From Escherichia phage Lys8385Vzw: a stretch of DNA of 50,953 bases. Shown one piece after another: positions 36,001 to 39,000 of the stretch. The DNA lies in sequence record MT225100; one strand, given 5' to 3'. Made by a program: the position numbers. Positions within the stretch are counted from its first letter, which is position 1, and every line of letters starts with the position of its first letter.

Positions 36001-39000
36001 GTCAAAGAATCAGTCAATGAACCAATAGCTGTTGGTGCATCTGCTGATGAGTCTGTGCGAGTTCGTTCAAACCGACCGGAATACTCTCCGGAGTTTGAGC
36101 AGGCATGGCTGGCATATCCCAAACGTGCTGGTGGCAATTCAAAATCTGCAGCCTTCAAAGCCTGGAAAGCCCGTTTGAATGAGGGGGTAAACCCCGAAAC
36201 CATGCTGGAAGGTGTGAAACGCTACGCGGGCTGGGTATCTGCGATGGGTAACAGCGGCACACAATTTGTGAAACAGGCTGTCACGTTCTTTGGTCCGGAT
36301 CGTCATTTCGAAGAATCCTGGGAAGTTCCTGCGGTATCTGCAGCCGGACGTGAGGACCCGTACTTCAAAGCCAGTTACGACAACGTGGACTACAGCCAGA
36401 TCCCGGCAGGATTCAGGGGGTGATCATGAGTCTTTTGAATGACGTTCAGAAATTCATTGAAGCCCATCCGGGGTGTACTTCCGGAGACATTGCGGATGCT
36501 TTTGCAGGTTACTCACGGCAGCGCGTTCTGCAGTATGCAAGCAAGTTACGTCAGAGTGGGCGTGTGGCTCACCGTTGTGAAGGAGATACACGCAGACATT
36601 TCCCGCGCCTGACTGAGAGAGCGAAGGAGCTGGAACCACAACCAGTTCGTGAAACCAGACCTGTGCGCAATTTCTATGTCGGCACTAACGATCCCCGGGT
36701 AATTTTGTGCCTGACCCGCCAGGCTGAAGAACTGGAGTCCAGGGGCTTATACCGTCGTGCTGCAACCGTGTGGATGGCGGCATTCCGTGAAAGCCACTCC
36801 CAGTCAGAACGAAACAATTTTCTGGCGCGCCGTGAGCGGTGCTTACGGAAAAGCAGCAAGCGCGCTGTATCGGGTGATGAGTGGTATCTGTCAGGGAATT
36901 ACGTGGGGGCTTAATGAGTAATAAATATTGCCAGGCGTTGGTGGAACTGCGGAACAAACCAGCCCATGAACTGAAGGAAGTGGGCGATCAGTGGCGCACG
37001 CCGGACAACATTTTCTGGGGAATTAACACCTTGTTTGGTCCGTTTGTTCTGGATCTGTTCACTGACGGTGATAACGCCAAATGTGCTGCGTATTACACGG
37101 CGGAAGACAACGCGCTGGCGCATGACTGGTCAGAACGTCTTGCGGAGCTTAAAGGGGCTGCCTTTGGTAATCCCCCATACAGCCGCGCCAGTCAGCATGA
37201 GGGGCAATACATCACCGGCATGCGTTACATCATGAAACATGCCAGTGCCATGCGTGATAAGGGGGGGCGCTATGTTTTCCTGATCAAAGCTGCCACCAGC
37301 GAAGTGTGGTGGCCGGAAGATGCGGACCATATTGCTTTTATTCGAGGGCGTATTGGTTTTGAACTGCCTGCCTGGTTTATCCCGAAAGACGAGAAGCAGG
37401 TACCGACAGGCGCTTTCTTCGCTGGTGCTATTGCTGTTTTCGACAAGACCTGGAAGGGACCGGCAATCAGCTACATCGGGCGCGATGAACTTGAGGCATG
37501 TGGTGAGGCCTTTCTGGCGCAGGTTCGCCAGCAGGCAGAAAAACTGGTCAGGGAGATGGCGGCATGACGACGTTAACTCAATGCCAGCAGCAGGTGCTGG
37601 ATATGCTGATTTCTTATCAGAAAGAACGTGGCTTCCCGCCAACCAATCAGGAGGTGGCAACCATGCTGGGATACCGTTCAGTGAATGCAGCGGTGGAGCA
37701 TCTTCGCGCACTGGAGAAAAAAGGCGTCATCACGATAAAGCGTGGTGTGGCCCGGGGGATCACGCTTCATACCGCAGTGAAGGACGACGACAGCGAAGCG
37801 GTCGGGATTATCCGCTCACTGCTTGCCGGTGAGGAAAACGCAAGGCTGCGTGCAACTCACTGGTTACATGAGAGAGGCCTGAAAGTATGAAGCTGATCCT
37901 GCCTTTCCCGCCCAGCGTGAACACGTACTGGCGACACCCCAACAAAGGGGCATTTGCTGGTAAGAGCCTGATAAGCGCGGCGGGGCGAAAATTTCAGAGC
38001 GCGGCGTGTGCAGCAATAGTTGAGCAGTTACGTCGTCTGCCAAAACCAACGTCGGCACCTGCTTCAGTGGAGATCGTGTTGTTTCCTCCTGATAACAGGA
38101 TCCGCGATCTGGACAACTATAACAAGGCACTGTTTGACGCCCTGACACACGCGGGTGTGTGGGAAGACGACAGCCAGGTGAAAAGAATGCTGGTGGAGTG
38201 GGGACCGGTTATCCCGGAAGGGAAGGTCGAGATCACTATCAGTAAGTACGAGAAAACGGCGGGTGCAGCCGCCTGATTAAGAGGAGAAACGAAGTATGAA
38301 TAATCTGATGGTCATTGATGGTATTGAAGTTCGTCGTGATGCTTATGGGCGTTACAGCCTGAACGATCTGCATCGCGCAGCAGTAGCATCTGGTGCAAAT
38401 GCCAGAACCAAGGAGCCAGGAAAGTTTCTTTCCAGCCAACAAACTGTTGAGCTTGTTCATGAATTGACCAACACCCAGAATTTGGGTGTTGACCCGGTGA
38501 GTGTGATTCATGGGGGAAATGAACGGGGAACGTATGTCTGTAAGGAACTGGTGTATGCCTATGCAATGTGGATCAGCCCGTCATTCCATCTGAAGGTGAT
38601 CCGTACTTTCGACATGGTAACCAGCGCACCGGAAAAATTATCCGGGCAGGCTGCTGACAAGATGCAGGCTGGTGTGATTCTGCTGGACTTTATGCGTCGG
38701 GAGTTAAACCTGTCTAACTCATCTGTGCTTGGTGCCTGTCAGAAACTCCAGGAGGCTGTTGGCTTACCGAATCTGGCACCGCGCTATGCCATTGATGCTC
38801 CTGCTGACGCGCCTGATGGCTCAAGTCGCCCCACGCTGTCGCTGAGTGCACTGCTGAAGCAATATGGTATCCGCCTGACGGCTAATCAGGCATATCACCA
38901 GATGGCGAAGCTGGGGATCGTTGAACAACGCGAACGATACAGCCGTACCGCGATTAACAACATCAAAAAATTCTGGTCGCTGACGGCGAAAGGCTGCATG

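What the first reader, a model, noticed from the sequence alone, without database searches (positions are those of the whole stretch)
37564..37890. Stand-alone LexA-like DNA-binding domain protein without peptidase domain
The 108-aa protein resembles the LexA N-terminal winged helix but lacks an S24 domain. A truncated LexA mimic could act as a non-cleavable competitor at SOS boxes (including the dinI boxes on this phage) or as a phage-specific regulator.
Basis: inference. Interest (0 to 1): 0.35.

Follow-up and report, generated by a model that had tools for sequence, protein, structure and literature searches.

The report
Phage LexA DNA-binding-domain-only protein
This is a real small gene of a Shiga-toxin phage that encodes only the DNA-binding half of a LexA-like repressor; it is already catalogued in about 40% of complete E. 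coli genomes, and I found no experimental test of its function.

Summary
Window 37564-37890 (+) encodes a 108-aa protein. Residues 1-68 are a LexA-type winged helix: Pfam PF01726 E=2.9e-19, 50% identity to E. coli LexA, and the model superposes on LexA structures at 1.1-1.3 A. There is no S24 peptidase domain. Residues 75-103 form a two-helix tail specific to this family.

The protein is not new. The identical sequence is an NCBI "MULTISPECIES LexA family transcriptional regulator". It belongs to PHROG 362, occurs in SfV (orf42), mEp460, cdtI and Stx2 phages, and is present in 2233 of 5426 complete E. coli genomes. I found no functional study in the held literature.

The gene lies in the early-right operon. 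Its start overlaps the dam stop and its stop overlaps the rusA start. RusA follows it in all 160 informative related loci.

The proposed role as a competitor at SOS boxes is possible but not favoured. Four of the five LexA base-contact residues are kept. However, every tail-bearing relative lacks Glu44, and the recognition helix differs between clades, whereas canonical LexA hits are constant.

The closest characterised analogue is GIL01 gp6, a truncated LexA that binds its own palindrome and activates late genes. The most likely role is a RecA-insensitive phage regulator with diverged specificity. No target site was identified.

The parts
37564..37890 (+). Complete gene for the 108-aa LexA-DBD-only protein (stop codon included)
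   Evidence: ORF list. PF01726 E=2.9e-19. PHROG 362 E=1.1e-59 over the full length. The exact protein is in public collections as 'LexA family transcriptional regulator'.
37550..37555 (+). Shine-Dalgarno-like AGGGAG, 8 nt upstream of the ATG
   Evidence: Read directly from the sequence.
37564..37767 (+). Residues 1-68: LexA-type winged helix-turn-helix domain
   Evidence: AlphaFold model. Foldseek to 1lea/3jso, rmsd 1.1-1.3 A, 50% identity. phmmer to PDB LexA.
37681..37719 (+). Recognition helix (residues 40-52). The positions equivalent to LexA contacts S39/N41/A42/E44/E45 read S/N/A/V/E; Val44 is the codon at 37693-37695.
   Evidence: Ungapped alignment to LexA. Contact residues from PMC3091678. 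Family comparison.
37786..37872 (+). Residues 75-103: family-specific two-helix tail (H75-88, H93-103; consensus EAVxxIRALLAGExxARxRAxxWLxxRG). Candidate dimerisation or partner-binding element; that role is inferred.
   Evidence: Model secondary structure, pLDDT about 86 in this region. Conservation down to 38-47% identity. No similar region in LexA.
36881..37567 (+). Upstream gene: phage Dam N6-adenine methyltransferase. Its stop overlaps the start of the LexA-DBD gene (ATGA).
   Evidence: PF05869 E=1.1e-45; sequence.
37887..38276 (+). Downstream gene: RusA Holliday-junction resolvase. Its start overlaps the LexA-DBD stop. It is the invariant downstream neighbour in related loci.
   Evidence: PF05866 E=6.1e-15. 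RusA lies directly downstream in 160 of 160 informative loci. The overlap is kept in mEp390, Citrobacter and L164.
33375..33404 (+). PR-like promoter (TTGACA-18-TACATT) next to the cI/Cro operators. Probable source of the transcript that carries the gene (inferred).
   Evidence: Promoter scan. Operator palindromes at 33356-33400. cI and Cro identified. No promoter-like or terminator-like site directly flanks the gene on the + strand.
24126..24173 (.). Two canonical SOS boxes upstream of the phage dinI-like gene. They are the only convincing LexA boxes in the window, and are a possible target only under the SOS-box-competitor reading.
   Evidence: Pattern search: 4 hits against 0.71 expected. 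17/20 and 15/20 matches to the consensus, all other sites 11/20 or fewer. DinI PF06183 E=1.2e-19.

Best explanation
The gene encodes a stand-alone LexA-type winged-helix DNA-binding protein. It arose from a gammaproteobacterial-type lexA by loss of the S24 peptidase/dimerisation domain and gain of a short two-helix tail.

It is transcribed as part of the early-right (PR) operon of a lambdoid Stx-converting phage and is translationally coupled between dam and rusA. It is therefore made after induction or infection, not in the lysogen.

Because it has no catalytic or cleavage module, RecA* cannot inactivate it. It most likely acts as a sequence-specific regulator whose specificity has drifted away from the host SOS box towards a phage- or clade-specific site. 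This is what happened with the truncated LexA homologue gp6 of tectivirus GIL01. The tail probably supplies the self-association, or the partner contact, that the lost C-terminal domain used to provide.

Shown here: the fold, the domain loss, the operon position, the conservation and the variation in the recognition helix. Inferred: DNA binding, diverged target, timing of expression and the role of the tail.
For: - Fold and homology.
- A real, constrained gene: length, tail motif and synteny are kept from 100% down to about 40% identity. It is present in 2233 of 5426 complete E. coli genomes.
- DNA-binding hallmarks retained: Ser39 and Asn41, and the wing R64-G65-I66, are invariant or nearly so in the family.
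- Diverged specificity: Glu44 is absent from every tail-bearing member, and the five contact positions differ among clades, whereas most canonical LexA hits are SNAE[E/D/Q] (contact residues from PMC3091678).
- Faster evolution than its neighbour: the protein is 42-66% identical between clades where RusA is 70-90% identical.
- Precedent: GIL01 gp6 is a truncated LexA homologue and an early gene product. It binds its own palindrome and activates the late promoter (PMC6182141). gp6 aligns to this family's profile with 96.6% probability.
- It is not the immunity repressor: a separate cI with HTH_3 and S24 domains lies at 32687-33340.
Against: - No candidate operator was found. A palindrome-enrichment scan of the window recovered only the cI/Cro operators and A/T runs.
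- Lambdoid late transcription is already explained by Q, so no regulatory gap calls for this protein.
- Four of the five LexA contact residues are kept in the E. coli clade, so residual SOS-box binding cannot be excluded.
- Oligomeric state is unknown. The tools gave only a monomer model, with pTM 0.57 and a low-confidence linker at residues 71-80.
Confidence: 0.5

Rival explanations
1. Non-cleavable LexA mimic. After induction the protein occupies host and phage SOS boxes, including the two dinI boxes at 24126-24173. It re-imposes repression of the SOS regulon while host LexA is being destroyed.
For: - 50% identity to the E. coli LexA DBD, with Ser39, Asn41, Ala42, Glu45 and the wing RGI kept.
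- The isolated LexA N-terminal domain retains some SOS-box binding and repression, and has to be removed by ClpXP for full induction (PMC10584840).
- Real SOS boxes exist on this phage and on mEp460 and mEp390.
Against: - Glu44, one of the five base-contacting residues, is Val here and never Glu in the family.
- The contact positions vary between clades from E. coli, Citrobacter and other enterobacterial phages, although those hosts share the same SOS box. Most canonical LexA hits keep SNAE[E/D/Q].
- SfV carries the gene but no dinI is annotated in the stretch examined (record 17000-37074), so the phage dinI boxes are not an obligatory partner.
- The dinI boxes are canonical in both protein clades, with no co-variation.
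Confidence: 0.25
2. Accessory DNA-binding partner or regulator of the adjacent RusA resolvase, or of replication/recombination more generally. The conserved tail would contact RusA and the winged helix would contact DNA.
For: - RusA is the immediate downstream gene in 160 of 160 informative loci across three clades, while the upstream gene varies: Dam 53, PerC-like 25, gp42-like 8, other 70.
- The stop/start overlap is kept.
- The tail is more conserved than the recognition helix.
Against: - Most RusA-bearing phages lack the gene. 322 of 408 phage records have RusA below 60% identity to this one; none of the listed rows of that group (HK97, HK620, P22-like and others) has a LexA-like gene annotated across the RusA start, although only a spread sample of rows was seen. 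Yersinia phage YeP2 has dam directly next to rusA.
- RusA is active on its own as a homodimer (my own knowledge, not checked here).
- The adjacency may simply reflect inheritance of one module.
Confidence: 0.1
3. Decaying remnant of a captured lexA gene with no current function.
For: - The TIGR00498 match runs through the LexA linker and cleavage-site region (model 1-91).
- 'LLAGEE' resembles LexA 'VAAGEP'.
- Many frameshifted or truncated copies exist in databases.
Against: - Intact 104-112-aa versions persist from 100% down to about 40% identity, with a conserved tail motif, conserved synteny and translational coupling.
- The exact sequence occurs on at least 1000 contigs.
Confidence: 0.03

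Closest known systems
GIL01 (Bacillus thuringiensis tectivirus) gp6, a truncated LexA homologue that activates the late promoter P3 (Fornelos et al. 2018, PMC6182141)
   Same: Both are temperate-phage early-operon products that consist essentially of the LexA winged-helix domain with no S24 domain. Both hit PF01726. Profile alignment gives 96.6% probability and 33% identity over 63 columns. Each is closest to the LexA of its own host group: 50% to E. coli LexA here, 44% gp6 to B. thuringiensis LexA.
   Different: - gp6 is 66 aa with no tail; this protein has 40 extra residues forming two conserved helices.
- BLASTP finds no pairwise alignment, so the two probably arose by independent captures.
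- gp6's key Lys38 aligns with Asn41, which stays LexA-like here.
- gp6 has a mapped palindromic site and a shown activator role; neither is known here.
- The host phage here is a lambdoid siphovirus whose late genes are controlled by Q.
E. coli LexA repressor (PDB 1lea, 3jso; TIGR00498)
   Same: N-terminal winged-helix fold, rmsd 1.1-1.3 A and 50% identity over residues 2-69. Four of five base-contact residues and the wing RGI motif are kept.
   Different: No S24 peptidase/dimerisation domain and no conserved Ala-Gly cleavage site. Scores below the equivalog cutoff (70.8 against 110.95). Glu44 is replaced by Val. It is phage-encoded inside an early lytic operon rather than an autoregulated SOS gene.
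LexA N-terminal cleavage fragment (residues 1-84)
   Same: A DBD-only LexA species. It is known to retain partial operator binding and repression until ClpXP removes it (PMC10584840).
   Different: That fragment is a transient degradation intermediate with a ClpX degron at its new C-terminus. The phage protein is genetically encoded, ends in a folded helical tail, and has a changed recognition helix.
PHROG 362 / NCBI 'LexA family transcriptional regulator' (SfV Orf42, mEp460 gp46, mEp390 gp43, cdtI, Stx2a/Stx2c phages)
   Same: This is the family the protein belongs to. It shows 97-100% identity to many deposited copies and a full-length PHROG match at 1.1e-59.
   Different: Nothing differs in sequence. 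The database label 'transcriptional repressor' is an annotation by homology. I found no experiment behind it.

Membership tests
LexA repressor (TIGR00498 equivalog; S24 family) | N-terminal LexA-type winged helix-turn-helix (PF01726) | tested here: met
   PF01726 E=2.9e-19, full model. Foldseek to 1lea/3jso rmsd 1.1-1.3 A.
LexA repressor (TIGR00498 equivalog; S24 family) | C-terminal S24 peptidase/dimerisation domain with the Ser/Lys dyad | tested here: not met
   The protein ends at residue 108. No PF00717 hit. TIGR00498 covers model 1-91 of 203 only, and scores 70.8 against a cutoff of 110.95. The next gene, in another frame, is rusA.
LexA repressor (TIGR00498 equivalog; S24 family) | Conserved Ala-Gly self-cleavage site in the linker | tested here: not met
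   An 'AG' occurs at residues 88-89 (LLAGEE). The equivalent positions in relatives read LLANEE, LLAKEE, LLVGEE, MVERES, MIDDQP and others. The segment is predicted helical.
LexA repressor (TIGR00498 equivalog; S24 family) | Base-contact residues Ser39, Asn41, Ala42, Glu44, Glu45 (CTGT recognition) | tested here: inconclusive
   Four of five are kept (S, N, A, V, E) (residues from PMC3091678). Every tail-bearing relative lacks Glu44.
LexA repressor (TIGR00498 equivalog; S24 family) | Binds CTGT-N8-ACAG SOS boxes and represses SOS genes | not testable with these tools
   Needs EMSA, a reporter assay or ChIP. Two real SOS boxes exist in the window at 24126-24173.
Phage DBD-only LexA homologues of the GIL01 gp6 type | LexA DNA-binding domain only, encoded by a temperate phage among early genes | tested here: met
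   Architecture. Position between the replication genes and Q in the rightward operon.
Phage DBD-only LexA homologues of the GIL01 gp6 type | Sequence relationship to gp6 | tested here: inconclusive
   Profile-profile comparison gives 96.6% probability, E=5e-10 and 33% identity. BLASTP gives no alignment. The two share a domain but are not an orthologous family.
Phage DBD-only LexA homologues of the GIL01 gp6 type | Lys38 in the recognition helix, required for gp6 binding | tested here: not met
   gp6 Lys38 aligns with Asn41 of this protein (gp6 data).
Phage DBD-only LexA homologues of the GIL01 gp6 type | Own palindromic site at a late promoter; transcription activation | tested here: inconclusive
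   No enriched palindrome other than the cI/Cro operators in the window. Binding and activation cannot be tested with these tools.
PHROG 362 / NCBI 'LexA family transcriptional regulator' of enterobacterial lambdoid phages | Full-length similarity including the C-terminal tail, and position directly upstream of rusA | tested here: met
   PHROG 362 E=1.1e-59, 1-108 on 1-106 of 106. 97-100% identity to SfV orf42, mEp460, cdtI and Stx2 phages. The exact sequence is in the public collection. RusA downstream in 160 of 160 loci.

The most novel reading that the evidence does not exclude
The protein is a RecA-proof 'replacement LexA'. Once an Stx or other lambdoid prophage is induced, it dimerises through its helical tail, re-occupies SOS boxes (or a subset of them), and shuts down host SOS functions. 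Affected functions could include the phage's own dinI, error-prone polymerases, SulA, colicins, and LexA-controlled antirepressors of co-resident prophages. It would do this in the roughly 40% of E. coli strains that carry it, so it would shape Stx output, mutagenesis and cross-induction between prophages.
Probability: 0.15. Interest if true: 0.65.

Novelty: already known. Interest (0 to 1): 0.28.

Why it matters
The gene is one of the most common accessory genes of E. coli lambdoid prophages. It is in 41% of complete genomes, with up to four places (copies) per genome, and it sits in Shiga-toxin phages whose induction depends on the SOS response.

If it acted on SOS boxes it would be a phage-encoded brake on the host DNA-damage response. 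That would have consequences for toxin release and antibiotic-induced mutagenesis.

If it is a gp6-like regulator with its own site, it is an independent second example of phages reusing the LexA DNA-binding domain.

At present it is simply an annotated gene of untested function. The sequence evidence here leans away from the more exciting reading.

Tried and rejected
1. Trans-cleavable substrate or pseudo-substrate idea. The LLAGEE segment resembles the LexA VAAGEP cleavage site, but the Ala-Gly is not conserved in the family and the segment is predicted helical. Rejected.

2. Search for an operator. I enumerated inverted repeats with 4-6-nt arms and 0-12-nt spacers against k-mer expectation. 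Only the cI/Cro operators (about 33356-33400 and 32572-32620) and A/T runs stood out. The CTGT-N8-ACAG sites at 34345 and 48342 lie inside coding sequence and match the SOS consensus poorly, 11/20 and 9/20.

3. Co-variation between the phage dinI boxes and the protein's recognition helix. The boxes are canonical in the window, in mEp460 and in mEp390, despite different helices. This gives no support.

4. Defence or anti-defence link. PADLOC gave only a weak winged-helix hit to a CARF-associated model, E=3.6e-4. Rejected.

5. RusA dependence. Among the RusA phage records I sampled, those below about 60% identity show no LexA-like gene across the RusA start.

6. Immunity repressor. A separate cI with HTH_3 and S24 domains exists. 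Rejected.

7. Retrieving the LexA-DNA crystal-structure paper failed. The contact residues are therefore taken from PMC3091678.

8. BLASTP against gp6 gave nothing. Only the profile comparison showed the relationship.

The others found no functional study of this family.
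Full report
**1. The observation**

Window 37564-37890 (+) is an intact ATG-initiated ORF of 108 codons. 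An AGGGAG ribosome-binding site lies 8 nt upstream. The start codon overlaps the stop of the preceding gene (ATGA), and the stop overlaps the start of the next gene.

The product matches the Pfam LexA DNA-binding domain over the whole model (PF01726, E=2.9e-19, 69 bits against a cutoff of 23.7). It matches the NCBIfam lexA equivalog only over model positions 1-91 of 203 and scores below the family cutoff (70.8 against 110.95). There is no Peptidase_S24 hit.

Against solved structures the best matches are all LexA. The E. coli LexA DBD (1lea) scores E=6.9e-16 and aligns without gaps over residues 2-69, with 34 of 68 residues identical.

An AlphaFold model built on a 22-sequence family alignment (mean pLDDT 83) shows three helices and a two-stranded wing. 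Two further helices follow, at residues 75-88 and 93-103. Foldseek superposes residues 1-68 on LexA structures at 1.1-1.3 A rmsd.

**2. What surrounds it**

The window is a lambdoid, Stx-converting phage genome in virion gene order. Pfam assignments are:

| Coordinates | Strand | Assignment |
|---|---|---|
| 22620-23540 | - | NleG effector |
| 23864-24112 | - | DinI |
| 24174-25271 | - | integrase |
| 32687-33340 | - | cI repressor (HTH_3 + S24) |
| 33436-33633 | + | P22-type Cro |
| 33661-34245 | + | CII/CP76-like |
| 34242-35387 | + | Rha/Ash protein |
| 35605-36423 | + | HTH_36/DnaD_N replication protein |
| 36420-36914 | + | PerC-like protein |
| 36881-37567 | + | Dam methyltransferase |
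| 37564-37890 | + | the LexA-DBD gene |
| 37887-38276 | + | RusA |
| 38296-39105 | + | KilA-N protein |
| 39121-39636 | + | 171-aa protein, no Pfam hit |
| 39646-40635 | + | DUF968/HNH |
| 40607-41401 | + | Q antiterminator |
| 41960-42916 | + | Shiga-toxin A-type RIP gene |
| 43800-45632 | + | NanS-p-like esterase |

A PR-like promoter lies beside the operators at 33375-33404. No promoter-like or terminator-like site directly flanks the gene on its own strand.

By position, the gene is a delayed-early product of the rightward operon. It would be made after induction or infection, not in the lysogen. This is an inference. It is not the immunity repressor, because a separate cleavable cI is present.

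**3. How common it is**

- The same DNA, 95-100% identical, is in 2233 of 5426 complete E. coli genomes. It occurs at up to four places per genome and PGAP annotates it 'LexA family transcriptional regulator'.
- The exact protein is in the public collection on at least 1000 contigs as 'MULTISPECIES: LexA family transcriptional regulator [Enterobacteriaceae]'.
- It is 97-100% identical in phages SfV (orf42), SfII, SfIV, cdtI, mEp460, SKA5 and Kati, and in many Stx2a/Stx2c phages. Those records call it 'LexA DNA binding domain protein', 'LexA-like protein' or 'transcriptional repressor'.
- It matches PHROG 362 over its full length (E=1.1e-59).
- A comparative study of Stx phages lists a pfam01726-only 'LexA family transcriptional regulator' pham in 15 phages, without functional data (PMC8136144).
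- More distant full-length relatives at 38-52% identity carry the same tail motif, EAVxxIRALLAGExxARxRAxxWLxxRG. They include mEp390 gp43.

I found no experimental study of this family in the held literature.

**4. Gene neighbourhood in relatives**

I examined 160 informative loci from three clades: near-identical copies, the mEp390-type clade at about 45% identity, and an environmental clade at about 46%. RusA is always the next gene. The upstream neighbour varies: Dam 53, PerC-like 25, mEp390 gp42-like 8, other 70. The stop/start overlap is retained, and the Citrobacter copy at 65% identity shows the same arrangement.

The two proteins do not evolve at the same rate. Between clades the LexA-DBD protein is 42-66% identical where RusA is 70-90% identical.

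The link does not hold in the other direction. 322 of 408 phage records with a RusA homologue fall below 60% identity to this RusA. None of the listed rows of that group (HK97, HK620 and P22-like phages among them) has a LexA-like gene annotated across the RusA start, though only a spread sample of rows was seen. Yersinia phage YeP2 has dam directly next to rusA.

The pair therefore looks like a module inherited together within one RusA sub-clade. This is suggestive of a functional link but does not prove one.

**5. Does it read SOS boxes?**

The window has four CTGT-N8-ACAG sites against 0.71 expected. Only two look like real LexA boxes: TACTGTGTTTGTATACAGTA and AACTGTATGGATAAACAGTG. They match the consensus at 17 and 15 of 20 positions and lie just upstream of the DinI gene. 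LexA-controlled phage dinI genes are already described (PMC7556043).

The five LexA residues reported to contact bases are Ser39, Asn41, Ala42, Glu44 and Glu45 (PMC3091678). The phage protein has Ser, Asn, Ala, Val, Glu.

I aligned the best hits of an exhaustive search of 1.8 billion representative proteins. About 65 of the 147 aligned stretches, the canonical LexA-like hits, read S-N-A-E-[E/D/Q] at these positions. Every protein that carries the tail lacks Glu44, having V, T, F, A, L or Y instead. The five positions also differ between clades: SNAVE, SNTAG, SNAAE, SNGFE, SNALL, SNTFI.

These phages infect enterobacteria that all use the same SOS box. A dedicated SOS-box mimic would be expected to keep the LexA reading head, and this family does not. 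The dinI boxes are canonical in the window, mEp460 and mEp390 regardless of the protein's helix. In the SfV stretch examined (record 17000-37074) no dinI is annotated, although SfV carries the gene.

On the other side, the isolated LexA N-terminal domain is known to retain some operator binding and repression (PMC10584840). Four of five contacts and the wing R64-G65-I66 are kept. Residual SOS-box binding therefore cannot be excluded.

**6. Closest characterised analogue**

GIL01 gp6 is a 66-aa truncated LexA homologue encoded among the early genes of a temperate tectivirus. It binds its own palindrome (GaCACAn nTGTGaC) overlapping the -35 element of the late promoter P3 and activates that promoter. 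Lys38 in its recognition helix is essential. The authors proposed capture from the host followed by a change of specificity (PMC6182141).

gp6 also hits PF01726. It aligns to this family's profile with 96.6% probability and 33% identity, although BLASTP finds nothing pairwise. Its Lys38 aligns with Asn41 here.

The two therefore share an architecture and a likely evolutionary route. They are not one orthologous family, and the enterobacterial family has an extra conserved tail.

**7. Mechanism I commit to**

The protein is a RecA-insensitive, sequence-specific DNA-binding regulator made from the early-right operon. Its specificity has diverged from the host SOS box. The two-helix tail replaces the lost dimerisation domain or contacts a partner (confidence about 0.5).

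- Shown: the fold, the loss of the peptidase domain, operon position, conservation, and variation in the reading head.
- Inferred: DNA binding, target, timing, and the role of the tail.

Rivals:
- A RusA or recombination accessory factor (0.1).
- A decaying remnant (0.03). This is contradicted by conservation of length, tail and synteny down to about 40% identity.

My attempt to find an operator by palindrome enrichment recovered only the cI/Cro operators. The target remains unknown.

**8. Verdict**

The finding is real and correctly described, but it is an already catalogued and very common prophage gene. The sequence comparison done here leans towards a regulator with diverged specificity rather than a LexA mimic.

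Novelty is low. Interest is modest, and comes from the gene's prevalence in Stx phages and from the absence of any functional test that I could find.

Noticed in passing
window 24126-24173, with dinI-like gene 23864-24112 (-): Two tandem canonical SOS boxes, 28 bp apart centre to centre, lie between a DinI-family gene and the integrase gene. The same pair is present in mEp460 (L176 23257 and 23285).
   Followed up: partly
window 41960-42916, 43800-45632: A Shiga-toxin A-type ribosome-inactivating protein gene and a NanS-p-like SASA/DUF6645 esterase lie downstream of Q, so the window is an Stx-converting phage. No record in the phage collection covers more than 63% of 26000-50900 (95.5% identity), so it is a mosaic not held there as such.
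   Followed up: partly
window 22620-23540 (-): An NleG-family type III effector gene (PF06416, E=8.8e-48) lies in the region between the tail genes and the attachment/integrase end.
   Followed up: no
window 25726-26298 and 26295-26714 (+): A SocA/Panacea antitoxin-domain protein is followed by an overlapping 139-aa ORF with no Pfam or PADLOC hit. This may be a toxin-antitoxin or defence pair next to the integrase.
   Followed up: no
window 33356-33400 and 32572-32620: Repeated ACAT/ATGT palindromes flank the cI gene on both sides. They are probably the OR and OL operators of this immunity type. A PR-like promoter lies at 33375-33404.
   Followed up: partly
window 34242-35387 (+); site at 34345-34360: The Rha/Ash-domain ORF has about 115 N-terminal residues with no domain hit. 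It contains a CTGT-N8-ACAG match that is conserved in mEp460 (L176 33200). The true start of this gene may lie further downstream. The site matches the SOS consensus poorly (11/20).
   Followed up: no
proteins P0132, P0133, P0149, P0152, P0153, P0156, P0159, P0186, P0212: Many proteins of 140-350 aa carry two LexA DNA-binding domains in tandem, with non-canonical recognition helices (for example SNGMC). They look like pseudo-dimeric DBD-only LexA derivatives, which would be another way of replacing the lost dimerisation domain.
   Followed up: no
L177 20396-21308 (mEp390): mEp390, which carries the 44-47% identical homologue, has DinI and a UmuD-like gene next to attP, with one canonical SOS box (CTGTATATGCATACAG, 20708-20723).
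   Followed up: partly
L176 41023-41038 (mEp460): An A/T-rich CTGT-N8-ACAG site (CTGTAAAAATAAACAG) lies at the very start of the late-region DNA methyltransferase gene gp53. The window has the stx region at the equivalent place.
   Followed up: no
window 39121-39636 (+): A 171-aa ORF between the KilA-N and DUF968/HNH genes has no Pfam family. It is absent at this position in mEp460, SfV and the Citrobacter locus.
   Followed up: no
window 37564-38276 compared with L002, L164, L175: The LexA-DBD protein diverges much faster than its translationally coupled neighbour RusA: 42-66% against 70-90% identity between the same pairs of phages.
   Followed up: yes
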